This document shows positions 4,688-47,202 of a stretch of 64,000 nucleotides of DNA, piece by piece. Positions within the stretch are counted from its first letter, which is position 1; the number at the start of each line of letters is the position of its first letter. A program made the position numbers and the translations under genes. Under the pieces are notes generated by a model that saw only the letters and a program-made list of their open reading frames with translations, was not told the DNA's origin and did not search any database. The stretch is from Escherichia coli (GTDB lineage Bacteria; Pseudomonadota; Gammaproteobacteria; Enterobacterales; Enterobacteriaceae), in the NCBI RefSeq assembly GCF_044324875.1, contig NZ_CP172186.1; one strand, given 5' to 3'.

Positions 4688-5040
4688 AGGATGTCGCCGC
4701 AGGCTCCGCTTTACTCGGCCATGCGGGGCATGGCCTTGTGGGTTTTCAGTTATGTGGCCTCAGCGTCGTGTGCGGGCTGTGCCGTGCCTCCATCGTAGCC
4801 GGGCTTCTGCGGGCGGGTTGCAAGGTAAGGTGAACCGCTGCGGTCACCCGGTCCCTCCTTCCCGTCTGCCGTGATTTTCCGGTCGTTCACCCGCTCAGAT
4901 TTCGCGGTCTCACCCTCCAACTCCCGCCAGCCGTGTGCGTCAGGCTGCGGCTTCCCTTGCGCCCTTGCAACCCTGCAGGCCCGGCAAAGATGGAGGCACG
5001 GCACCGCCCGGTGTCGCGGAATATGTGAACAACGGAGGAA
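4688..5040 (+). promoter_or_regulatory. single-strand-promoter-like structured element, family A copy 1 (upstream of klcA)
   Basis: ~350-bp GC-rich element with long-range inverted repeats (TGCCGTGCCTCCATC ... GATGGAGGCACGGCA), near-identical to 16918..17275. Confidence 0.5.
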
Positions 5041-6881: not shown

Positions 6882-9800
6882 ATGAGTGCACGTGGTATCA
6901 ACAAGGTCATCCTCGTCGGGGTGCGCCGTTGAAGCGCGGTGTTTTATGGAGTGTTGCCTGAAAAGCAACATGGCTTAGTGGTATAGCCATTGCATACTGT
7001 GGTTAGCCTTGCTTGGTAACAGGCTCGGAGATCCTGAAAAGGAGAGGTGAACATAGCATCCACAGAAAAGGGTGGTGAATATGGAAATCGTTATAAGTAT
7101 CACCATTCAATGCAAGATGTATATGGATAAACTGGGTTTGTTGAAGTCGAGATCTATGTGGGAAACAGGAAACCAATAACGCAGAACGATTGAAGCGTTA
7201 TTCCCGTACTAGCACAAGAAATCCGTCCGACGTTGATTGTGACCACTCTAACGGGCCAGCTATTGATGAAATAGTTAAACGATCGAAAGACATCCTAAGT
7301 ACATCGCATCTCCACACCGTGAAACTACGGGACTACCTAAACTGGATTTATACCCAGCATGGTAGCGGAGTCTCCATAGTACTCAAGGTCGGCCTGTAAT
7401 GGGTTCCGGCAGTCCGCATTATACGGAAGCAGCAAAGGTATAAATCAACCGGAAGGAAGATGAAAGCCTCACAGTGCTGCGGGGAAGGGAGACAGTTGTT
7501 AGATACATCAATCTCTAAGAGGAGGGTTAGCCAATGCTGCCTGATGAACTTGAGAAAAGATTAGATGGAATTGAGGATGCTTCAAAAAAAGGGTATCCAG
7601 TACGTAATCTATACAAAATTGCGTGTGAGCCCGGACTGTGGCTGCAAGCCTACGTGAATATACGGGCCAATGCAGGTGCACTGACTCAAGGTGTATCAAC
7701 AGATACCATTGATGGCTTTTCTATCGAAAGAGCAGAGAAGCTGGCAAAAACATTGCGGAGTAGAGAATACGTAGCGAAACCTGTACGCAGAGTTCAGATC
7801 CCAAAAAAGGACGGAAAAACCAGACCGCTGGGGATTCCAGGTGGAGACGATAAACTGGCGCAAGAAGTAGCAAGAATTATTCTGGAAAGGGTTTATGAAC
7901 CAGTATTCTCTGAACACTCTCATGGATTCAGACCAAAACGTTCGTGTGAAACTGCGCTCAGATCTATTCGTCCAGTCTGGAACGGAGTTAAATGGATCGT
8001 GGATGTTGATATCAAAGGTTTCTTTGACAATATCCCCCACAAACTATTGCTGAATACACTGGCAGAGAAAATTAAGGATAAGAATTTCCTGAAATTAATC
8101 GAACAGTGGCTGAAGGCAGGATATGTGGACAATTGGAAATACCATCGCTCATATTCTGGCACGCCACAAGGTGGGATAATTTCTCCCTTACTGGCAAATA
8201 TATACCTCGACAAACTGGACCGTTTTGTAGAACAGAATTTAATTCCTGCATATACAAGCGGTACAAAACGAAGAGCGAATCCAGATATGAACAGGCTGGC
8301 CCATAAGATTCATAAACTACGAAAGAAAGTAGACGGTATGGCAACTGATTCTGAATCAGAAAAAGAAGCCATAAAGAAAGAAATTGAACGACTGCTTGAA
8401 GAAAAACGTTCTATACCATCTCAGGTCATGAACGATCCAAACTTCAGGCGTATGTACTATGTTCGATATGCTGATGACTTCGTAATCGGTGTCATCGGCT
8501 CGAAGAAAGATGCTGAACATATATCAAGACAGGTCAGAAACTTTATTACTACTTCACTGGGATTGGAAGTTAATGAAGCAAAGACCAGGATCCGCCATAT
8601 CTCAGAAGGAGTTAATTTTTTAGGCTATGAAATCAGACAGGCAGATGCAAAGAAATTGCTGAAGCAGAAAATGCAAGGGCGGCACGCTCTCCGGAGATCC
8701 ACCACAGGAATTGTGCAGCTCTTCGTTCCTGACAATATAGCCGCTAAATTTTGTCACCAAAAGAAATATGGCTGTTATGAGAATGTGAAGGCTGTACATC
8801 GTTCAAGTCTACAAAATCTCAGTGAAGCTGAAATTGTTCTGACTTTCAACGCGGAAATGCGCGGATTGGCGAACTACTACAGTCTGGCGCTGGACATGAA
8901 ATATAAATTATCAAAATTATATTTCATATGGCAAATAAGCCTTTTTAAGACCCTGGCGAATAAACGACGTAGTTCAGTGAATAAAGTCGCCAAATCGCTA
9001 CGGCAAAATAATGGAGATCTGGCTATTACCGTTCAGGCCAAAAATGGATCCCGAAAGATTGAGGTTTTCAAACTCAAACATGTCAATCGCAACCGAACAA
9101 CGATTGTCGATACGGAACCGAGAACCGCACATATCACAACCCGCACAACAGAGATCATGCGTCGATTAGGGGCAAGGATCTGCGAGTATTGTGCGAAGAC
9201 TGGGCGCTGCGAAGTACATCATGTCAGAAAGCTAAAAGACCTGAAGAAAGGTCGTAAGGCCGGATATAAACCCAGCTTGTGGCAACTAATGATGATCGCA
9301 CGCCGCCGGAAAACGATGATTTTGTGCGCAAGTTGCCACGACAAGTTACATAGCGGAAAACTACCCGATTTGAGACAGGAAAAGGGAAGAATACTCCTGC
9401 AACCACCTGTCTCAAGCGGGGATTCTGCTAAATGAGTTTATCCCCAATAAGCTAGCAATGGAGAGCCGTATGCACTGAAAGGTGCACGTACGGTTCGGAG
9501 GGGGGGTAACGGTGATCTAACTCAAGATAAGCAGGACATATTCGCCATTTATCTTGAAAGACCACACGTACCCTACCCTACCGTCTGGGCAATGATCCGG
9601 AAGTCTGTTACATCCCCAACGGGGGCGCAGTGGCAAACCTGCAGGTCGCCACGTCAGAAAGCTGGCGCGACAAACAGACGGGGGAGATGCGGGAGCAGAC
9701 GGAATGGCACCGCGTGGTGCTGTTCGGCAAGCTCGCGGAAGTGGCTGGTGAATATCTGCGCAAGGGCGCGCAGGTCTACATCGAGGGGCAACTCCGTACC

Positions 9801-10064
9801 CGTAGCTGGGAGGATAACGGTATCACCCGTTACGTCACTGAAATTCTTGTTAAGACCACGGGCACCATGCAGATGCTGGGGAGTGCACCACAGCAGAACG
9901 CTCAGGCGCAACCGAAGCCTCAGCAGAATGGGCAGCCACAGAGTGCTGACGCGACGAAAAAAGGTGGCGCGAAAACGAAAGGCCGTGGACGTAAGGCCGC
10001 GCAGCCGGAGCCTCAGCAGCCGTCTGAACCCGCGTATGACTTCGATGACGACATTCCGTTCTAA
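6882..10064 (+). CDS. ssb: plasmid single-stranded DNA-binding protein, split by a group II intron (exon 1 6882..6920, exon 2 9582..10064)
   Basis: Exon 1 [13 protein letters not shown]; exon 2 [35 protein letters not shown]...DDIPF; exons are in frame and together match the plasmid SSB N-terminus. Confidence 0.8.
7534..9435 (+). CDS. group II intron-encoded reverse transcriptase/maturase with HNH endonuclease domain
   Basis: 633 aa; RT motifs [31 protein letters not shown]; C-terminal CEYC...HHV...CASCHDKLH zinc/HNH motif. Confidence 0.9.
   Translation: MLPDELEKRLDGIEDASKKGYPVRNLYKIACEPGLWLQAYVNIRANAGALTQGVSTDTIDGFSIERAEKLAKTLRSREYVAKPVRRVQIPKKDGKTRPLGIPGGDDKLAQEVARIILERVYEPVFSEHSHGFRPKRSCETALRSIRPVWNGVKWIVDVDIKGFFDNIPHKLLLNTLAEKIKDKNFLKLIEQWLKAGYVDNWKYHRSYSGTPQGGIISPLLANIYLDKLDRFVEQNLIPAYTSGTKRRANPDMNRLAHKIHKLRKKVDGMATDSESEKEAIKKEIERLLEEKRSIPSQVMNDPNFRRMYYVRYADDFVIGVIGSKKDAEHISRQVRNFITTSLGLEVNEAKTRIRHISEGVNFLGYEIRQADAKKLLKQKMQGRHALRRSTTGIVQLFVPDNIAAKFCHQKKYGCYENVKAVHRSSLQNLSEAEIVLTFNAEMRGLANYYSLALDMKYKLSKLYFIWQISLFKTLANKRRSSVNKVAKSLRQNNGDLAITVQAKNGSRKIEVFKLKHVNRNRTTIVDTEPRTAHITTRTTEIMRRLGARICEYCAKTGRCEVHHVRKLKDLKKGRKAGYKPSLWQLMMIARRRKTMILCASCHDKLHSGKLPDLRQEKGRILLQPPVSSGDSAK
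9461..9494 (+). ncRNA. group II intron domain V (catalytic hairpin)
   Basis: 34-nt hairpin GAGCCGTATGCAC-TGAAAG-GTGCACGTACGGTTC matching the domain V pattern. Confidence 0.65.
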
Positions 10065-12864: not shown

Positions 12865-13071
12865 GCGCATGCAAAATGGCATCTGAATCGATCGCAGTTT
12901 GGCATTCGAATCGATCATGATTTGGCATCCATCTCCGATCACAGTTTGGCATCACAATCGATCACGATTTGGCATGCTTCCGATCATTGATTGGCATCCT
13001 GCCAGTCACTCCGGGAATTAACTCTTTTCACCACAGTCTCCATTGCCGTGTTTAAACCAGTGGAGACGTCA

Positions 13072-14637
13072 ATGTCCAGAAAGAGAAAATCCAGGAGCAC
13101 TATGGAAACCTGTTTTAAGATCCTTCAGCTCAAGTTCGACAAGAAGCTGACTAACCGTTGTATCGGACTGACGTTACACATCAGCGCCTCAACCGTTTTT
13201 GAGGTTCTTGCCCGCTTCAAAGCCTCTTCTCTGTCATGGCCATTACCTGCTGATATATCCCATGACACGCTGGAGAAACTCATTTTTCCGCCCAAAGACA
13301 CCTTTGCATCAGAGCTTGTAATGCCTGACATGTTGTACTTCGATACGGAAATGAGAAAACCAGGTGTGACGCGGCAACTGTTGTGGATGGAATACAAGGC
13401 ACAGGCGGGTAACAAAGCGATGGGATACTCGCACTTCTGCCGTTGCTACCGGGAGTGGAAAAAAACGCGACGTCTCTCCATGCGCCAGGAGCATCGTGCC
13501 GGCGAAAAGCTTTTTATCGACTTCTGTGGTCCTACGGTTCCTGTTATTAATCCGGACACCGGTGAGATACGCCGCGTGGCAATCTTCGTGGCCGTAATGG
13601 GGGCGTCCAACTATACCTACGTTGAAGCGTGCGAAGGTCAGGACATGATGTCATGGTTAAATGCCCACAGCCGTTGCCTGACCTTCCTGGGCGGCGTACC
13701 GAAGCTGCTCATCCCCGATAACCTCAGAAGCGCAGTGAAAAAGGCCGATCGATATGAGCCTGTCATCAACGACAGTTATCAGGCACTGGCTGAGCACTAT
13801 GGCACGGTTATCATCCCGGCCCGACCACGCAAACCTAAAGATAAACCAAAAGCAGAAAACGGCGTCCTCATCGTTGAACGATGGCTTCTTGCCCGCATCC
13901 GTAATGAAACCTTCCACACGCTCAGGGCGCTGAATGCGCGCCTTAGGGAGTTACTGACAGACATGAATAACCGGCCAATGAAGGGGTACGGCAATCAAAC
14001 CCGTGCAGAACGCTTCCGCATACTGGATGCGCCAGCACTCTCTCCGCTGCCTCTGGCACCTTATGAATACACGGAATACAAAGCTGTGAAGGTTGGCCCT
14101 GACTACCACGTTGAATATGCCCGTCACTGGTACTCCGTTCCACACGAACTGGTCGGTCAGCGTCTGTCACTGAAGGCGGGGCAGTCGGTGGTACAGCTCT
14201 GGCACAAGGGGCAGTGTGTGGCGCAACATCCGCGCAGCACACATGAATATAAACACACAACCAATCCGCTTCACATGCCAGAGCGCCACCGGCAGCACGG
14301 GACATGGACACCGGAACGCCTGATCGAGCAGGGAAAACGTACGGGCCCGTCCACAGGCCGGGTGGTTGAATCCATGCTGAAGGCAAAACCCCATCCGGAA
14401 CTGGCTTATCGTGCAGTTCTGGGGCTGCTGGCACTTCAGAAAAAATACGGCCCGGAACGGCTGGAAAAGGCCTGTTACGTTGCCCTGCACTATAACGCCC
14501 CTGACAGACGCTTTATCGACAATCTGCTGCGTCACCATCGGGAGAACCTGGAGCTTCCATTATCCCGCCAGGGCGAACAACATCCGGCATATGCTTCAGA
14601 GCATGAAAACCTGCGTGGTCCGGGCTACTACCACTGA
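13072..14637 (+). CDS. istA: IS21-family transposase IstA
   Basis: ~521 aa, HTH N-terminus and DDE integrase core; start chosen at MSRKRKS after GGAGACG RBS. Confidence 0.85.
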   Translation: MSRKRKSRSTMETCFKILQLKFDKKLTNRCIGLTLHISASTVFEVLARFKASSLSWPLPADISHDTLEKLIFPPKDTFASELVMPDMLYFDTEMRKPGVTRQLLWMEYKAQAGNKAMGYSHFCRCYREWKKTRRLSMRQEHRAGEKLFIDFCGPTVPVINPDTGEIRRVAIFVAVMGASNYTYVEACEGQDMMSWLNAHSRCLTFLGGVPKLLIPDNLRSAVKKADRYEPVINDSYQALAEHYGTVIIPARPRKPKDKPKAENGVLIVERWLLARIRNETFHTLRALNARLRELLTDMNNRPMKGYGNQTRAERFRILDAPALSPLPLAPYEYTEYKAVKVGPDYHVEYARHWYSVPHELVGQRLSLKAGQSVVQLWHKGQCVAQHPRSTHEYKHTTNPLHMPERHRQHGTWTPERLIEQGKRTGPSTGRVVESMLKAKPHPELAYRAVLGLLALQKKYGPERLEKACYVALHYNAPDRRFIDNLLRHHRENLELPLSRQGEQHPAYASEHENLRGPGYYH

Positions 14638-14653
14638 CAGAAGGAACAACAGT

Positions 14654-15409
14654 ATGAGTGATAACCTGTTAAACAAACTGACCCAACTGAAACTCCCGGC
14701 GATGGCCGGGAGCCTGATACGGCAGCGGGAAACGCCTCAGACCTACGACGAACTGTCGTTCGAGGAAAGGCTGACGCTGCTGGTTGATGACGAGCTTCTG
14801 AGCAGGGAAAACAGCCGTGTGGCACGGTTGAGAAAAAATGCCGGCCTGAAATACCAGGCAACACCGGAAGGGCTGCGCTATCCGGCCTCAAGAGGTCTGC
14901 GGGCTGAACAGATGAGAGAACTGCTGAACGGCCACTACATAACCCACAGGAAAAACCTGCTGATAACCGGTCCGACAGGATGTGGCAAGAGCTGGATAGC
15001 CAATGCGCTGGGCGAACAGGCATGTCGACAGAAACACAGCGTCCGGTACTGTAGAACCGGGCGATTACTGGAACAACTGGCTCAGGGACGTGTTGATGGC
15101 AGCTGGCTGAAATATCTGAAACAGTTGCAAAAAATACAGGTTCTAATCCTGGACGATCTGGGGCTGGAACAGTTAAGTAACGCCCAGTGTAATGACCTTC
15201 TGGAGCTCATAGAGGATCGTTACGGACAAAGCAGCACGATAGTGGTAAGCCAGTTCCCGGTAGATAAATGGCATGGTCTGATGGAGAACCCAACAACAGC
15301 AGATGCCATCCTGGACAGACTGGTACATAACTCACACCGAGTGGTCCTTCAGGGAGAGTCACTGAGGAAAAATCCCCCGGTAGTGGAAAGCAGCGAAAAA
15401 ACGCGTTAA
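14654..15409 (+). CDS. istB: IS21-family helper ATPase IstB
   Basis: 251 aa; Walker A LLITGPTGCGKSW, Walker B ILILDDLG. Confidence 0.9.
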   Translation: MSDNLLNKLTQLKLPAMAGSLIRQRETPQTYDELSFEERLTLLVDDELLSRENSRVARLRKNAGLKYQATPEGLRYPASRGLRAEQMRELLNGHYITHRKNLLITGPTGCGKSWIANALGEQACRQKHSVRYCRTGRLLEQLAQGRVDGSWLKYLKQLQKIQVLILDDLGLEQLSNAQCNDLLELIEDRYGQSSTIVVSQFPVDKWHGLMENPTTADAILDRLVHNSHRVVLQGESLRKNPPVVESSEKTR

Positions 15410-15509
15410 AAAGCGGTAGAAAAAGTTAAGTTCCCGGTTGATCGAATGGATGCGAATCGCTGATCGGACTTCGATGCCAATCCGTGATCGAATAGAGCGG
15501 AATACGCAA

Positions 15510-16917: not shown

Positions 16918-17275
16918 GGAATAAGGACGTCGCCGCCGGCTCCGCTTTTACCCGGCCATGCGGGGCATGGCCTTGTGGGTTTTCAGCTCTGTGGCCTCAG
17001 CGTCGTGTGCGGGCTGTGCCGTGCCTCCATCGTAGCCGGGCTTCTGCGGGCGGGATGCAAGGTAAGATGAACCGCTGCGGTCACCCGGTCCCTCCTTCCC
17101 GTCTGCCGTGATTTTCCGGTCGTTCACCCGCTCAGATTTCGCGGTCTCACCCTCCAACTCCCGTCAGCCGTGCGCGTCGGGCTGCGGCTTTCCTTGCGCC
17201 CTTGCATCCCTGCAGGCCCGGCAAAGATGGAGGCACGGCACCGCCCGGTGTCGCAGAACATGTGACTATGGAGGA
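16918..17275 (+). promoter_or_regulatory. single-strand-promoter-like structured element, family A copy 2 (upstream of ardA)
   Basis: Near-identical to 4688..5040. Confidence 0.5.
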
Positions 17276-17282
17276 TTCGGGA

Positions 17283-17783
17283 ATGTCTGTTGTTGCACCT
17301 GCTGTATACGTTGGAACCTGGCACAAATATAACTGCGGAAGCATCGCCGGCCGCTGGTTTGACCTGACCACGTTTGATGATGAACGCGATTTTTTCGCCG
17401 CCTGCCGTGCCCTTCACCAGGATGAAACCGATCCGGAACTGATGTTTCAGGATTATGAGGGTTTCCCGGGGAATATGGCCTCTGAATGTCATATCAACTG
17501 GGCCTGGGTTGAAGGCTTCCGCCGGGCACGGGATGAAGGCTGCGAAGAGGCTTATCGTCTCTGGGTGGATGATACCGGTGAGACGGATTTTGACAGCTTC
17601 CGCGATGCCTGGTGGGGCGAGGCTGACAGTGAGGAGGCTTTTGCGGTTGAGTTCGTCAGTGATACCGGCCTGCTGGCTGACGTGCCGGAGACGGTGGCGC
17701 TCTATTTTGACTATGAGGCGTATGCGCGGGATTTATTCCTGGACTCCTTCACCTTTATTGACGGTCATGTGTTCCGTCGGTGA
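17283..17783 (+). CDS. ardA: antirestriction protein ArdA
   Basis: 166 aa MSVVAPAVYVGTWHKYNCGSIAGRWFDLTTFDDE...; acidic DNA-mimic, matches recalled ArdA. Confidence 0.9.
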   Translation: MSVVAPAVYVGTWHKYNCGSIAGRWFDLTTFDDERDFFAACRALHQDETDPELMFQDYEGFPGNMASECHINWAWVEGFRRARDEGCEEAYRLWVDDTGETDFDSFRDAWWGEADSEEAFAVEFVSDTGLLADVPETVALYFDYEAYARDLFLDSFTFIDGHVFRR

Positions 17784-17934
17784 TTTACTCCCCCGCTCCG
17801 GCGGGGGTATGGCCTGCCGGGCCGCCGGAAAACCCTGGCAGGCTTACGCCTGCCTGAAATACAGGAGGGCCGCGCCTGCGGCGCTGCCCTTCCTGCCCGT
17901 CATGGTGTGAGGCATTTTTCTGTTTTGTCGTTTC

Positions 17935-18505
17935 TGTTGTTCTGATGCCCGGAGGCGGGGACACCCTTCGGCTCCCGGCTGCCTGGCGGCATCCGGTCGT
18001 CGGCCCGACTCCGACAGGCAGCTGCTGGCGCACCCGCCAGTCTCCGCCGAACCCGCTGGCGCGGTTTCGGGCTGCCGCTACGGTCCGATGTCTGAAAAAC
18101 CAGGCCTGCAGCGACCGTTCCGGTCGCGCCGCCCCTGTCGCGCCGGAAACGGCGCTCCCTGCACACCTGACGGTGTGTAAGGCCACTGCGCCTGATGGCG
18201 CAGTCAACCCTTCCGCCGCCACCCCTGCGGCCTGTTTCCCGCTGTGGACTTTCCGGGGGCTGAAGCGGCCACAACACGGGGCAGCCGTCCAGGGGAGAGA
18301 TGTACCAGCCACAAAACTTTTTGCCGCAGGCGTCAAAAACTTTTGCGTCTGCCCCCGGACAACTGCCCCGTGCCGTGGCAGTCGCTGCCCCATCGGAAAG
18401 GTCCACTGCGGGGAGAAACCCCGAAGAAGTGGACGGCAGAAGGGGCTTTCGCCCCTCCGGGGGAGCAACCGGTCGGCCCGGCGACCTGATTCAGCAGAAG
18501 GAGAC
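17935..18505 (+). promoter_or_regulatory. single-strand-promoter-like structured element, family B copy 2
   Basis: Near-identical to 6290..6875. Confidence 0.5.
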
Positions 18506-18511
18506 GTTTTC

Positions 18512-18946
18512 ATGACAGTCAGCAGCACGATTTCCGTTTTTTGCCGAGACGGGGTGTTCCGTACCGTTTACTGCCACCTGCACGGTGAGCCGACCTGGAA
18601 CGGTCGCATCCTGCATACCCACTATGCCACCGGTCAGCTGGCCGAAGCCCTGGTTGAACACGGAGATATCCGTTGCCTCGGTCCCCGTTGCGACAAACCC
18701 GCCGGGCATACGCTTCAGAACCCGGTGGACGGTGTGACGGCTTATTACGGACGTGACAGTGGTTTCCGGATGGACAGTGAGGCGCGTGAGTACCGTTCTT
18801 TCAGGGAGGCTATTGCCACTGAAAGCACTGAAGAGGTGCGCTTCCATTATGTGTTCATCGACGGCTACTGGAAGGTGATGTACCGCACGCCGGAAGGCTG
18901 GAAGATGAAAGCGCTCGCGCTGGCACTGCGTCGCTGTCCGGAATGA
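18512..18946 (+). CDS. hypothetical protein directly downstream of a family-B element
   Basis: 144 aa from MTVSSTISVFCRDG; GAAGGAGACG RBS; the long 17945..18946 ORF upstream of this start is the repeat element read in frame. Confidence 0.6.
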   Translation: MTVSSTISVFCRDGVFRTVYCHLHGEPTWNGRILHTHYATGQLAEALVEHGDIRCLGPRCDKPAGHTLQNPVDGVTAYYGRDSGFRMDSEAREYRSFREAIATESTEEVRFHYVFIDGYWKVMYRTPEGWKMKALALALRRCPE

Positions 18947-19037
18947 AAAAAAGCAGGGCGATAAACCCTGCCTCTCTCCGCCGCTGCTTCCCGGCCAGGA
19001 AGAGCGGCAGTCATCAACAACATAAGGAGAAATATTT

Positions 19038-19304
19038 GTGAGACCATCAATTATCTTCGCAACCGCCGAGTATGTAAAGCGTCTGCGTGAAGAGTGCCTG
19101 CGGGAGAATAAACCCCTGCACCGCCATACCCGCTTCAGACGTCAGGAGCTGGCACAGGATGAGATTAACCCGGACGTCCTGGCGATGAGCGGTCATATCG
19201 CCAGACGCTGCAGTGAGCAGAAGCGGGTGCGTATCCCCGCCATGAAAGTCAGCGAATGGGGCCACCTGCTCCGCGCGCTTGAAATTGAACGGGTCTGTCA
19301 CTGA
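19038..19304 (+). CDS. hypothetical small protein (GTG start)
   Basis: 88 aa; AAGGAGA RBS 8 nt upstream. Confidence 0.4.
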   Translation: MRPSIIFATAEYVKRLREECLRENKPLHRHTRFRRQELAQDEINPDVLAMSGHIARRCSEQKRVRIPAMKVSEWGHLLRALEIERVCH

Positions 19305-19368
19305 TTAACCCTTGCCGTCTGCCTGTGCAGGCGGCAGGATACGTTCAGACATCTCACCAGGAGGAACC

Positions 19369-20247
19369 GTGAGTAAGAAGAAAAACACCACAACGCCCAC
19401 GCCGCATGATGCCGCGTTCCGGTCGTTCCTGGCGAATCCCGACGTTGCCAGGGATTTTCTGGAGTTGCATCTTCCTGCGGAGTACCGGCAGTTGTGCGAC
19501 CTGTCCACCCTGAAGCTGGAACCCGCCACCTTTGTTGAGCCGGACCTGCATCAGTACGCCAGCGATATCCTCTGGAGTGTGAAAACCACCGGGGGTGAAG
19601 ACGGCTATGTTTATACGCTCATCGAGCACCAGAGCACCGAAAATCTGTACATGCCTTTTCGCATGTTACGTTACAGTGTGGCGGCGATGCAGAGACATCT
19701 GGAGCAGCACAAAACGTTGCCACTGGTCATTCCGGTGCTGTTCTATCACGGTGAGCGCAGCCCGTACCCGTACAGCATGAACTGGCTGGACTGTTTTGAG
19801 AATCCGGCACTTGCGGCTAAAATATACACAAAGCCGTTTCCGCTGGTTGATATCACTGTCGTTGATGACAATGAAATCATGAACCATCGCCGGATGGCCG
19901 CACTGACGCTGCTGATGAAGCATATCCGCCATCGTGACATGATGGAGCTGCTGGACAAACTCCCGCAGGTCATGGTGGAAATTTCAGACGAGCAGGTGCG
20001 TGTTCTGATTCATTACATCGTTAACGCAGGGGACACTGTATCACCGGAATTTATGCGGGCGCTGGCCGAGCGCCTGCCGCAGCATGAGGATAAACTGATG
20101 ACAATCGCAGAACGTCTTGAGCAGAAAGGTGCGCTTGAAAAAGCCCTGGCCATTGCGCGTCAGCTTCAGAAAATGGGGATGACACCTGAGCAGATTAAGC
20201 AGGCCACCGGACTTTCCGAAGCTGAACTGAAAAAAGTCATTCACTGA
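19369..20247 (+). CDS. rpn: Rpn-family (YhgA-like, PDDEXK) recombination-promoting nuclease
   Basis: 292 aa from GTG after AGGAGG RBS; ...TPTPHDAAFRSFLANPDVARDFLELHLP...DILWSVKT...YTLIEHQSTENLYMPFRMLRYSVAAM... typical Rpn N-terminal nuclease domain. Confidence 0.8.
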   Translation: MSKKKNTTTPTPHDAAFRSFLANPDVARDFLELHLPAEYRQLCDLSTLKLEPATFVEPDLHQYASDILWSVKTTGGEDGYVYTLIEHQSTENLYMPFRMLRYSVAAMQRHLEQHKTLPLVIPVLFYHGERSPYPYSMNWLDCFENPALAAKIYTKPFPLVDITVVDDNEIMNHRRMAALTLLMKHIRHRDMMELLDKLPQVMVEISDEQVRVLIHYIVNAGDTVSPEFMRALAERLPQHEDKLMTIAERLEQKGALEKALAIARQLQKMGMTPEQIKQATGLSEAELKKVIH

Positions 20248-20285: not shown

Positions 20286-20308
20286 CCAGCAGGAGCAGAG
20301 CAAACAGC

Positions 20309-20527
20309 ATGACGATTGCAGAACGTCTTATACAGAAAGGTTTCGACGAGGGTTTTAAAGAAGGTTTTAAACAAGGTTTTAAACAAGGTTTTAAACAAGG
20401 AGCTCTTGAAGTGGCGCGGGAAATAGCCTGCCGGCTTCGGGATATAGGCTGGTCGCCGGAACGGATTCAGGAGGTCACGGGACTTTCCGGTGAAGAACTG
20501 AAAAAGCTGTTTCCTGATGAGCAGTAG
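20309..20527 (+). CDS. free-standing Rpn C-terminal-tail (RpnS-like) small protein with GFKQ repeats
   Basis: 72 aa MTIAERLIQKGFDEGFKEGFKQGFKQGFKQGALEVAREIACRLRDIGWSPERIQEVTGLSGEELKKLF; parallels the last ~50 aa of the upstream Rpn (MTIAERLEQKGALEKALAIARQLQKMGMTPEQIKQATGLSEAELKKVIH); AGGAG RBS. Confidence 0.65.
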   Translation: MTIAERLIQKGFDEGFKEGFKQGFKQGFKQGALEVAREIACRLRDIGWSPERIQEVTGLSGEELKKLFPDEQ

Positions 20528-46647: not shown

Positions 46648-46991
46648 CGGTGGGGTACAAACGCAGAAATTTTGTTGTCATTACATCATCAGTTTTAGCC
46701 TGCAGAGACGCTGAAAAATCAGCGTTTTCAGACCCTGTTCAGGTTAGTGAATATTCTTGCCTGGCCTTTCGGCAATATCAATCCCCTGATGTGTGCACAC
46801 GTAGTCACTTTCCGGCTTTATTTCTGTCCCTGACACAAAATACGTGGTGGCATGAAAAGGATTGTGGCGGACAGGAAAACGATTAGAATAGCGGCGGGCG
46901 CTTGAGGCTGTATGCCGAAAGCGTTTTGTGGACGGCATGTAGCAGAAAGCCCCAGGCGATTTTTTTATCAATCAACCCAGGGCCCACTGTA

Positions 46992-47195
46992 ATGCCTAGA
47001 CAACATTATAGTAGCCCGATGACGGCCGAAAGGCAATGGAGGGGCTGCGATGCCACAACGAACGTTTTTAATGATGTTAATCGTCGTCTGTGTGACGATA
47101 CTGTGTTTTGTCTGGATGGTGAGGGATTCGCTTTGCGGATTTCGTATCGAGCAGGGAAATACGGTGCTTGTGGCAACGTTAGCCTACGAAGTTAA
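46992..47195 (+). CDS. pndC: possible PndC (mok-like overlapping reading frame); start uncertain
   Basis: Alternate frame overlapping almost all of pndA, as in hok/mok-type loci. Confidence 0.35.
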   Translation: MPRQHYSSPMTAERQWRGCDATTNVFNDVNRRLCDDTVFCLDGEGFALRISYRAGKYGACGNVSLRS

Positions 47196-47202
47196 ACGTT
47201 AA
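47050..47202 (+). CDS. pndA: Hok/Gef-family post-segregational killing toxin PndA
   Basis: 50 aa MPQRTFLMMLIVVCVTILCFVWMVRDSLCGFRIEQGNTVLVATLAYEVKR; below ORF-track cutoff, read directly. Confidence 0.8.
   Translation: MPQRTFLMMLIVVCVTILCFVWMVRDSLCGFRIEQGNTVLVATLAYEVKR

What the first reader, a model, noticed from the sequence alone, without database searches (positions are those of the whole stretch)
18512..19304. Unknown 144-aa and 88-aa genes positioned like ardA behind a single-strand promoter copy
The 144-aa ORF (MTVSSTISVFCRDGVFRTVYCHLHGEPTWNG...) starts 7 bp after family-B copy 2, exactly where ssb sits relative to copy 1. It has an excellent RBS and no similarity I can recognise. It and the following 88-aa GTG-start ORF are prime anti-defence candidates by position (anti-restriction, anti-CRISPR or anti-SOS type).
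Basis: inference. Interest (0 to 1): 0.65.

Follow-up and report, generated by a model that had tools for sequence, protein, structure and literature searches.

The report
Uncharacterised early genes ygcA and ygdA
Two real but functionally unknown plasmid genes sit directly behind a promoter that fires from incoming single-stranded DNA; the larger one belongs to a big phage and plasmid protein family with no known function or solved structure, and public databases misname it "PndC".

Summary
Window 18512-18946 (144 aa) and 19038-19304 (88 aa) are genuine genes. Both have AAGGAG ribosome-binding sites 8 nt upstream and dN/dS of 0.15-0.22. They are called ygcA and ygdA in IncI-type annotation. 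They lie in the leading region of an IncK2/Z (I-complex) E. coli plasmid, directly downstream of an Frpo/ssi-type single-strand promoter copy that is homologous to both F-plasmid Frpo regions.

The "post-segregation killing protein PndC" label is an annotation error. YgdA is a basic protein found only on enterobacterial plasmids, with no detectable relatives.

The anti-defence reading is plausible by position, phage distribution and ArdC neighbours. It is unproven, and no target can be named.

The parts
17960..18490 (+). Frpo/ssi class-1 single-strand promoter element (copy 2). It functions on the transferred minus strand and transcription runs rightward into ygcA.
   Evidence: Repeat family with copies before ssb and before the DUF4942 gene. 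70-85% identical to both F-plasmid Frpo regions. Minus-strand ssDNA fold -182.9 kcal/mol, z = -11.2. No sigma-70-type dsDNA promoter found on the + strand between ardA and ygcA.
18498..18503 (+). Ribosome-binding site AAGGAG of ygcA, 8 nt before the ATG
   Evidence: Read directly from the sequence.
18512..18946 (+). ygcA, 144 aa (WP_000218850.1). Member of a large uncharacterised phage/plasmid family and misnamed PndC in some records.
18953..19010 (+). Two stem-loops in the ygcA-ygdA spacer, with no U-tract after them
   Evidence: RNA fold -33.2 kcal/mol, z = -3.7. Both stems are kept in the divergent allele, with paired changes in the second stem.
19024..19029 (+). Ribosome-binding site AAGGAG of ygdA, 8 nt before the GTG
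   Evidence: Read directly from the sequence.
19038..19304 (+). ygdA, 88 aa, GTG start (WP_001247862.1). Basic protein (pI 9.9) with conserved N- and C-terminal strand-helix modules and a variable linker.
19369..20247 (+). Rpn-family recombination-promoting nuclease (ygdB), next gene in the same direction. It probably shares the transcription unit.
   Evidence: TIGR01784 E = 2e-49 and RpnA model E = 6e-99; annotation.
20309..20527 (+). 72-aa ORF resembling the Rpn C-terminal domain, possibly a free-standing RpnS-like antitoxin
   Evidence: TIGR01784 positions 223-273, E = 2e-5. A faint HTH_Rpn_C hit on the equivalent ORF in L005.

Best explanation
ygcA and ygdA are the first two cistrons of an early 'zygotic' operon (ygcA-ygdA-rpn-small Rpn-C-like ORF). 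During conjugation the minus strand of this window enters the recipient first, starting from oriT next to nikA.

**Shown.**
- The Frpo/ssi-type element at 17960-18490 is strongly structured as single-stranded DNA and is homologous to the F-plasmid Frpo elements.
- Both genes are intact, have strong ribosome-binding sites and are under purifying selection.
- YgcA is a compact alpha/beta protein. Its family of 130-160-residue stand-alone proteins is spread through phages, plasmids and integrative elements.
- The family shares a near-invariant polar set: T3, S5, H22, D24, Y26, S54, H66, R81, D82, R83.

**Inferred.**
- The folded element recruits host RNA polymerase and drives a burst of transcription before the complementary strand is made.
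- The conserved polar set forms an active site or ligand pocket.
- YgcA acts on a host factor, most probably a component or signal of an immune system, to help the incoming element establish.
- The window allele has replaced seven of the conserved positions yet remains under selection, so it has probably shifted specificity or works by binding rather than catalysis.
- YgdA is a small basic, probably oligomeric and nucleic-acid-binding partner or regulator that is specific to I-complex plasmids.

The target is unknown.
For: **Plasmid type and leading-region layout.**
- The window is 100% identical over the 1,601-base query (17800-19400), and 99.8-100% over each stretch shared with the fetched 17.6-kb locus, to an IncK2/Z MOBP/MPF_I plasmid.
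- The gene order is ssb-psiB-psiA-ardA-ygcA-ygdA-rpn-DUF4942-nikA-nikB.

**Promoter element.**
- It is homologous to F Frpo and strongly structured as ssDNA.
- In the IncI1 plasmid pESBL, the three ssi/Frpo-type class-1 promoters drive the strongest early induction in transconjugants, with transcription starts mapped by 5' RACE (PMC12672017).

**Real genes.** dN/dS is 0.15-0.22.

**Family size and phage distribution.**
- 1,836 clusters at E <= 1e-3.
- phrog_1987 and phrog_23089 at E about 1e-20.
- Homologues in jumbo phages, KVP40-like vibriophages and T4-like cyanophages.
- At least 580 IMG/VR contigs.

**Structure.** AlphaFold pLDDT is 96.6 and pTM 0.90.

**Conserved polar set and allele-specific changes.**

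**Cassette behaviour.** Identity to another I-complex plasmid drops from about 95-100% in the ~900 bp either side of the gene (89-100% over the wider flanks) to 43-64% exactly across ygcA.

**Anti-restriction neighbours.** A 43%-identical homologue lies beside two ArdC-type genes.

**Published enrichment.** A 2,203-member family labelled 'PndC', at median position 7 from oriT and T-strand oriented, is significantly enriched in leading regions (PMC11541004 Supplementary Table 1).
Against: **No functional evidence.**
- There is no experimental or homology-based link to any defence system.
- No match was found to PADLOC, Pfam, NCBIfam or any solved anti-defence structure.

**Not a known mimic type.** YgcA is not acidic like known DNA mimics.

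**No conserved partner.**
- Across 80 viral loci the commonest neighbour family occurs in 12 loci.
- The neighbours are ordinary phage genes.

**Divergent allele.** The window allele lacks T3, D24, Y26, S54, R83 and E85 of the family consensus, so a family-level activity may not apply to it.

**Ambiguous neighbour.** The adjacent Rpn nuclease belongs to a family described as an anti-phage toxin-antitoxin system (bioRxiv 10.1101/2023.05.02.539157). That fits a defence or competition role as well as an anti-defence one.

**Untested here.** Early transcription of these particular genes was not tested, and the pESBL paper's text does not name them.
Confidence: 0.45

Rival explanations
1. YgcA is PndC, the Mok-like leader reading frame of the pnd (Hok/Sok-type) post-segregational killing system, as many GenBank and UniProt records say.
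For: The name 'post-segregation killing protein PndC' is attached to this protein in NCBI, UniRef and AFDB entries and in many plasmid records. The same name appears on family 23 of PMC11541004 Supplementary Table 1.
Against: - The only Sok-type antisense RNA in the window is at 46896-47052 (RF01794, 125.6 bits).
- There, a 50-aa Hok-family toxin ORF lies at 47050-47202 with an overlapping leader frame at 46902-47195. This is 28 kb from ygcA.
- Nothing Hok- or Sok-like lies near 18.5 kb.
- YgcA is a 144-aa globular protein with hundreds of phage homologues and no toxin gene overlapping it.
- RefSeq's own annotation calls it 'hypothetical protein'.
Confidence: 0.02
2. The operon serves plasmid DNA processing rather than counter-defence. 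In this reading YgcA and YgdA assist the Rpn nuclease, or help strand conversion, recombination or circularisation of the incoming strand.
For: - The genes are co-directional and closely spaced with rpn (64-bp gap).
- The order ygcA-ygdA-rpn is kept in all I-complex loci examined.
- YgdA is basic (pI 9.9), as expected for a nucleic-acid binder.
- Other early leading-region genes (ssb, the ParB-like gene) act on DNA.
Against: - Outside I-complex plasmids, YgcA homologues are never next to Rpn genes.
- F plasmid has the same promoter type but neither gene, so they are not needed for generic strand processing.
- No nucleic-acid-enzyme fold was detected.
Confidence: 0.2
3. The genes act in defence or inter-element competition rather than anti-defence, for example exclusion of phages or rival plasmids in the new host. 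The phage homologues would then serve superinfection exclusion.
For: - The adjacent Rpn family is reported as a toxic anti-phage system held in check by small C-terminal-domain proteins.
- A free-standing Rpn-C-like ORF follows rpn here.
- Allelic cassette replacement is also typical of defence genes.
Against: - There is no PADLOC match.
- The family is mostly found in lytic-type large phages within arrays of small co-directional accessory genes.
- Expression from a transient ssDNA promoter suits a function needed only at entry.
Confidence: 0.15
4. YgdA alone is a small DNA-binding regulator, for example a ribbon-helix-helix-like repressor. It would shut off or tune the early operon or rpn once the plasmid is double-stranded, with no direct action on the host.
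For: - It is basic and 88 aa long.
- The model shows strand-helix, then helix, then strand-helix. The N-terminal 26 and C-terminal 32 residues are invariant, and the linker is variable and tolerates frameshifts.
- It is restricted to one plasmid lineage, as operon-specific regulators often are.
Against: - No Pfam match even at E <= 10.
- No PDB sequence match.
- No operator-like repeat was looked for or found.
Confidence: 0.25

Closest known systems
Frpo (plasmid F) and ssi1-3 (ColIb-P9/pESBL) class-1 single-strand promoters with their zygotically induced operons (ssb-psiB and others)
   Same: - Same repeat family by sequence.
- Same strongly structured ssDNA.
- Same placement immediately upstream of co-directional leading-region genes, with the transferred strand as template.
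   Different: - The cargo differs. F's second Frpo drives a 95-aa protein and a DUF932 protein, and F has no YgcA or YgdA.
- Here the cargo is ygcA-ygdA-rpn.
ArdA, KlcA/ArdB and ArdC anti-restriction proteins of leading regions
   Same: - Early-expressed small leading-region proteins.
- ardA lies immediately upstream of the promoter element.
- A distant YgcA homologue lies among ArdC genes.
   Different: - No sequence, profile or fold similarity.
- YgcA is neutral (pI 7.05), not a polyanionic DNA mimic (ArdA pI 4.13).
- It has no metalloprotease or ssDNA-binding domain.
PHROG families 1987 and 23089 (phage proteins of unknown function)
   Same: YgcA matches both over residues 1-126 at E = 1e-20 and 6e-20. 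Homologues include GAP32_348 and S-PM2p016.
   Different: - The plasmid allele has diverged at seven of the family's most conserved positions.
- phrog_23089 members carry a C-terminal extension of about 100 residues that is absent here.
Small phage anti-defence enzymes and signal sponges (Acb1, Tad1/Tad2, Acb2, AcrIII-1)
   Same: Comparable size, stand-alone genes in accessory arrays, and a conserved polar/aromatic residue set. These points rest on my own knowledge of those families.
   Different: - No 2H (HxT/S) motif is present.
- Only one family member gave a non-significant Acb3 hit (E = 0.05).
PndC/Mok leader peptide of the pnd/Hok-Sok system
   Same: Only the database name.
   Different: The true pnd locus is at 46.9-47.2 kb in this window. 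YgcA has no overlapping toxin frame or antisense RNA.

Membership tests
Frpo/ssi class-1 ssDNA-promoter-driven leading-region operon | Located in the leading region next to oriT, with genes oriented so that the transferred strand is the template | tested here: met
   The order ardA-ygcA-ygdA-rpn-DUF4942-(oriT)-nikA-nikB is all on the + strand. This matches the T-strand orientation ('strand 1') of the same families in PMC11541004 Supplementary Table 1.
Frpo/ssi class-1 ssDNA-promoter-driven leading-region operon | Upstream element homologous to the F-plasmid Frpo | tested here: met
   blastn of 17900-18511 against F 50-68 kb gave 84-85% identity over 68-70 nt and 70-73% over 142-146 nt, to both F regions upstream of ssb and of the second leading operon.
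Frpo/ssi class-1 ssDNA-promoter-driven leading-region operon | The transferred strand folds into a long imperfect hairpin that rebuilds -35 and -10 boxes | tested here: inconclusive
   A long hairpin is strongly supported (-182.9 kcal/mol, z = -11.2). The -35 and -10 hexamers and the transcription start were not mapped.
Frpo/ssi class-1 ssDNA-promoter-driven leading-region operon | Transient transcription in the recipient before complementary-strand synthesis | not testable with these tools
   Reported for ssi1-3 of the IncI1 plasmid pESBL by RNA-seq and 5' RACE (PMC12672017). Not measured for this plasmid.
PndC (Mok-like leader of the pnd Hok/Sok-type system) | Reading frame overlapping the pndA toxin gene and adjacent to the PndB/Sok antisense RNA | tested here: not met
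   The Sok model hit is at 46896-47052 only. The Hok-type 50-aa ORF and its overlapping frame are at 46902-47202. Nothing comparable lies at 18.5-19.3 kb.
ArdA/Ocr-type DNA-mimic anti-restriction proteins | Profile match to the ArdA family, strongly acidic surface and DNA-mimic fold | tested here: not met
   [not shown]
Anti-defence proteins with solved structures (anti-CRISPRs, sponges, Acb1-type enzymes) | Significant sequence or fold similarity to a solved member | tested here: not met
   [not shown]
PHROG 1987 / 23089 (uncharacterised phage protein family) | Significant profile match over most of the protein | tested here: met
   E = 1.2e-20 (residues 1-126 against profile 1-118 of 128) and E = 5.7e-20. 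Supported by phmmer and Foldseek on AFDB (TM 0.8-0.95 to uncharacterised proteins).
Ribbon-helix-helix DNA-binding proteins (considered for YgdA) | Profile match to an RHH family, or a strand-helix-helix fold match | tested here: not met
   [not shown]
Known anti-phage defence system components (PADLOC) | Match to a defence-system protein model | tested here: not met
   Zero families for both proteins at E <= 0.1.

The most novel reading that the evidence does not exclude
YgcA would define a new anti-defence family, shared by phages and plasmids, with a fold that has not been solved. It would be either a small enzyme or a ligand-binding protein built around the conserved T3/S5/H22/D24/H66/R81/D82 cluster. 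Plasmid alleles would have been swapped and remodelled in an arms race with host immunity. YgdA would be a lineage-specific second inhibitor or partner. The family would have been overlooked because it carries the wrong name 'PndC' and was therefore counted as toxin-antitoxin related.
Probability: 0.35. Interest if true: 0.75.

Novelty: new member of a known kind. Interest (0 to 1): 0.55.

Why it matters
I-complex plasmids (IncI1, IncK, IncB/O, IncZ) are major carriers of ESBL and AmpC resistance genes in E. coli and Salmonella from poultry and people. ygcA is present in 2,016 of 72,556 PLSDB plasmids.

It is one of the few genes placed directly behind the strongest class of entry-phase promoters, yet it has no known function, no Pfam family and no solved structure. 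Its relatives are found in hundreds of phage genomes.

If it neutralises a host immune system, it would add a new inhibitor family common to phages and plasmids. It could also help explain the host range of these resistance plasmids.

There is a practical point as well. The 'PndC' label should be removed, because it sends automated surveys down the wrong path. One published survey appears to have filed this family under toxin-antitoxin genes for that reason.

Tried and rejected
**Database searches with no result.**
- Pfam, NCBIfam and PADLOC gave nothing for either protein.
- PDB sequence and profile searches gave nothing significant.

**Fold searches.**
- Foldseek against AFDB returned only uncharacterised proteins and the 'PndC' entries.

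**Domain fusions.** Among 26 longer family members there was one WYL_2 fusion and one gp32-like fusion, and nothing recurrent.

**Neighbourhood analysis.**
- Across 80 IMG/VR loci (2,635 ORFs clustered) there is no conserved partner. The commonest neighbour family is in 12 of 80 loci, and the neighbours are ordinary phage genes.
- A possible link to NAD+ salvage came up: NMNAT, PnuC or NAMPT genes lie within 6 kb in GAP32-like, KVP40-like and one metagenomic phage. It did not hold up, because only 4 of the 80 viral loci, representing two lineages, have such genes within 10 kb. I rejected it as a conserved association.
- SprT-like and Metallophos neighbours recur in a few contexts but were not found in the 80 loci by tblastn.

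**Other checks.**
- There are no paralogues of YgdA or YgcA elsewhere in the window or in the F leading region.
- Literature searches for the accession number, the gene names and the PHROG numbers found nothing.
- I could not work out which family in PMC11541004 Supplementary Table 1 holds YgdA. The name appears only inside family 1 alongside YdaB and YdfB. That family may consist of ORFs embedded in the Frpo repeats, but I did not verify this.
- The first attempt to scan viral contigs with the 67-sequence alignment failed for lack of a sufficiently conserved stretch.
Full report
**Where the window comes from.** Over the 1,601-base query (17800-19400) the window is 100% identical to E. coli plasmid pLH50-c-A. 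That plasmid is typed IncK2/Z, MOBP relaxase, MPF_I, conjugative. Over the fetched 17.6-kb locus the two are 99.8-100% identical in each aligned stretch and differ by two insertions. The first is a 2.66-kb group II intron inside ssb. The second is a 2.64-kb IS21-family element at the psiB/psiA junction. The gene order is the classic I-complex leading region, read towards oriT:
- klcA-like gene, ssb, DUF905 gene, ParB-like gene, psiB, psiA, ygaA
- ardA (17283-17783)
- the two genes in question
- an Rpn nuclease, a small Rpn-C-like ORF, an HTH gene on the other strand and a DUF4942 gene
- then nikA and nikB

One IncI-gamma/K1 record uses R64-style names. In it the 144-aa gene is ygcA, the 88-aa gene is ygdA and the Rpn gene is ygdB.

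**Checking the observation.**
- The ORFs are exactly as described. ygcA runs from 18512 to 18946, with AAGGAG 8 nt before the ATG. ygdA runs from 19038 to 19304, with a GTG start and AAGGAG 8 nt before it.
- The ygcA frame stays open upstream through the repeat (17945-18946). The 18512 start is nevertheless the right one, because the family's conserved N-terminus begins at that methionine.
- Both are genuine coding genes. Against a 94%-identical allele and a 54%-identical allele, ygcA has dN/dS of 0.16 and 0.15. ygdA has 0.16 and 0.22.
- The upstream repeat is real, with three copies before ssb, ygcA and the DUF4942 gene.
- Copy 2 aligns to both Frpo-bearing regions of plasmid F.
- Its transferred (minus) strand folds as ssDNA far better than any shuffle, at -182.9 kcal/mol and z = -11.2.
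- A simple scan finds no sigma-70-type duplex promoter on the + strand between ardA and ygcA.
By my repeat boundaries the ygcA ATG is 29 bp past the last repeat similarity, and the ssb ATG is 44 bp past the equivalent point.
- ardA sits behind a different repeat (16947-17246, 97% identical to 4710-5009). This corresponds to the 'class 2' ssDNA promoters described for pESBL (PMC12672017).

**Published context.**
- In the IncI1 plasmid pESBL, donor-depleted RNA-seq showed six leading-region operons induced up to about 500-fold within 15 minutes. Three of them lie behind ssi1-3, which are Frpo-like 'class 1' elements and the strongest class. Transcription starts were confirmed by 5' RACE (PMC12672017). 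The main text does not name ygcA or ygdA.
- Samuel et al. (PMC11541004) showed that leading regions are hotspots for anti-defence genes and that a third of the 100 largest leading-region families are uncharacterised.
- Their Supplementary Table 1 lists family 23. It has 2,203 members, median position 7 from oriT, T-strand orientation and FDR-adjusted p of 0. [quoted passage not shown]
- By size, position and name this is almost certainly YgcA. The family would therefore have been counted among toxin-antitoxin genes rather than among the unknowns. I could not fetch the representative accession to prove this.

**The PndC name is wrong.** Many records call this protein PndC. From established knowledge of the pnd system of R483 and R16, PndC is the Mok-like leader frame that overlaps the pndA toxin gene and is controlled by the PndB antisense RNA. 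The window's only Sok-type RNA is at 46896-47052. Beside it are a 50-aa Hok-type ORF at 47050-47202 and an overlapping frame at 46902-47195. This locus is 28 kb away from ygcA. RefSeq calls YgcA 'hypothetical protein'.

**What YgcA is.**
- It has no Pfam, NCBIfam or PADLOC match.
- It matches two PHROG families of unknown function at E about 1e-20.
- A full phmmer scan of 1.84 billion representatives found 1,836 clusters at E <= 1e-3.
- tblastn finds homologues in GAP32-like jumbo phages, KVP40-like vibriophages, T4-like cyanophages and CcrColossus, all annotated hypothetical.
- Foldseek against AFDB returns uncharacterised proteins from Proteobacteria, Firmicutes, Actinobacteria, Cyanobacteria, Planctomycetes, candidate phyla and an archaeon.
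- Among plasmids the gene is confined to Escherichia, Salmonella, Shigella and Klebsiella I-complex-type replicons. It occurs in 2,016 PLSDB records, all at least 60% identical. F has no copy.

**Structure and conserved residues.**
- With a 67-sequence alignment AlphaFold gives pLDDT 96.6 and pTM 0.90. The topology is a beta-hairpin, two helices, a strand, a long loop, short helices, a three-stranded C-terminal sheet and a final helix.
- In 208 distant full-length members the following are each at least 89% conserved: M1, T3, S5, I7, Y20, H22, D24, G25, Y26, G31, L34, Y38, G51, S54, L56, H66, Y79, R81, D82, R83, G84, Y113 and W120.
- Most of the polar ones lie at strand ends or in loops. T3/S5 and H22/D24 sit on paired strands of the first hairpin. 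This pattern suggests an active site or ligand pocket. That is an inference, because I could not inspect the coordinates.

**The plasmid allele is an outlier.**
- The window protein carries T3V, R4S, D24H, Y26E, S54R, R83S and E85F. The V3/H24/E26 combination is unique among 209 sequences.
- The S54/R83 to R54/S83 swap occurs only in the two plasmid alleles. This hints that the two positions touch each other.
- It keeps S5, H22, H66, R81 and D82.
- The protein is neutral (pI 7.05), unlike ArdA (pI 4.13), so it is not a DNA mimic.

**Cassette behaviour.**
- Aligned to another I-complex plasmid contig (L002), identity is about 95-100% in the ~900 bp either side of the gene. Over the wider flanks it is 89-100%, apart from a 68% bin at 20100 and an 87% bin at 20300 in the rpn-3'/Rpn-C region. 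It falls to 43-64% across 18500-18900 and partly recovers to 78-82% up to about 19030.
- YgcA is 54% identical between the two plasmids, while YgdA is 98% identical.
- The alternative allele keeps T3, D24 and Y26, so it is closer to the family consensus.
- Intermediate alleles at 80-89% identity also exist.
- Such localised replacement is typical of genes engaged with variable host or competitor functions. It does not say which.

**Genomic context elsewhere.**
- A 43%-identical Salmonella homologue lies in a run of co-directional genes that includes two ArdC-type (ArdcN plus metalloprotease) genes, one of them fused to a CbtA toxin domain.
- Other homologues sit in long arrays of small co-directional phage genes of unknown function.
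- Unbiased clustering of 2,635 ORFs from 80 viral loci found no partner present in more than 12 loci. Nearly all neighbours are on the same strand, and the annotated neighbours are ordinary phage genes.
- NAD+-salvage genes lie within 6 kb in three phage lineages. Only 4 of the 80 loci show this, so I do not treat it as a functional link.

**What YgdA is.**
- It is an 88-aa basic protein (pI 9.9) known only from enterobacterial plasmids. The search found 59 clusters, essentially all close relatives.
- Residues 1-26 and 57-88 are invariant. The middle is variable, and in some variants it is frameshifted and then restored. This fits a flexible linker between two conserved modules.
- AlphaFold (pLDDT 68.5) predicts strand-helix, a disordered stretch, a helix, then strand-helix.
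- The 91-nt spacer before it carries two stem-loops that are conserved, with paired changes, in the divergent allele. They lack a U-tract.
- A nucleic-acid-binding or regulatory role is a reasonable guess, but only a guess.

**Most likely mechanism.**
- Shown: position, promoter homology, ssDNA structure, coding status, family membership, fold confidence, residue conservation and cassette exchange.
- Inferred: the operon is transcribed from the incoming strand in the recipient. YgcA uses its conserved pocket to bind or modify a host factor, most probably immunity-related. The plasmid allele has changed specificity or become a binder. YgdA is a lineage-specific partner or regulator.
- Alternatives I cannot exclude are a DNA-processing role together with Rpn and a defence or competition role. 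The Rpn family is reported as an anti-phage toxin-antitoxin system with small C-terminal-domain antitoxins (bioRxiv 10.1101/2023.05.02.539157). A 72-aa Rpn-C-like ORF follows rpn here.

**Verdict.**
- The anti-defence interpretation is plausible and somewhat strengthened, but unproven.
- In kind, this is another uncharacterised early gene pair behind a known type of ssDNA promoter, so I rate it a new member of a known kind.
- Several things raise its interest. The YgcA family is large and mostly carried by phages. It has no Pfam entry or solved structure. It has a clear conserved residue signature. It shows allelic cassette behaviour on clinically important plasmids. A wrong name has probably kept it out of candidate lists.

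Noticed in passing
window 6882-10064: The plasmid ssb gene (ATG 6882) is interrupted after codon 13 by a 2,661-bp group II intron at 6921-9581. The intron carries a 633-aa reverse-transcriptase/maturase ORF (7534-9435) and an Rfam group II catalytic-domain hit (9461-9581). The rest of ssb resumes in the frame ending at 10064.
   Followed up: partly
window 12870-15508: A 2,639-bp IS21-family element (istA 12991-14637, istB ending at 15409) is inserted at the psiB stop/psiA start junction, relative to pLH50-c-A. This cuts psiA off from its start and from the ssb-psiB transcript.
   Followed up: partly
window 20309-20527: A 72-aa ORF just after the Rpn nuclease gene (19369-20247) matches only the C-terminal part of Rpn proteins (TIGR01784 positions 223-273). 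It could be a free-standing equivalent of the intragenic RpnS antitoxins described for chromosomal Rpn systems.
   Followed up: no
window 4710-5009 and 16947-17246: A second 300-nt repeat family (97% identical copies) lies upstream of the klcA-like gene and of ardA. It matches the description of the 'class 2' ssDNA promoters of pESBL.
   Followed up: no
window 18953-19010: Two stem-loops lie in the ygcA-ygdA spacer (z = -3.7). They are preserved in the divergent allele with paired base changes in the second stem, and no U-tract follows, so they are not a classical terminator. Their function is unknown.
   Followed up: partly
window 17785-18528 (minus strand); L001 7986-8594: RefSeq annotates a 202-aa minus-strand 'hypothetical protein' lying entirely inside the GC-rich Frpo repeat. 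Long ORFs in several frames run through all three repeat copies and are probably spurious. The largest 'family 1' (YdaB/YdfB/YgdA names, 4,739 members) in PMC11541004 Supplementary Table 1 may consist of such repeat-embedded ORFs. This was not verified.
   Followed up: no
window 46896-47202: This is the true pnd/Hok-Sok-type locus of the plasmid. It has a Sok-family RNA (RF01794, 125.6 bits) and a 50-aa Hok-type toxin ORF with an overlapping leader frame. It is the locus to which the PndC name properly belongs.
   Followed up: partly
L016 6592-8336; L021 1-2103; L023 1-1758; L039 4904-6860: NAD+-salvage genes (NMNAT, PnuC, NAMPT) lie within 2-6 kb of YgcA homologues in GAP32-like, KVP40-like and two metagenomic phages. 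Only 4 of 80 sampled viral loci show this, so it is probably co-residence in accessory regions of large phages.
   Followed up: yes
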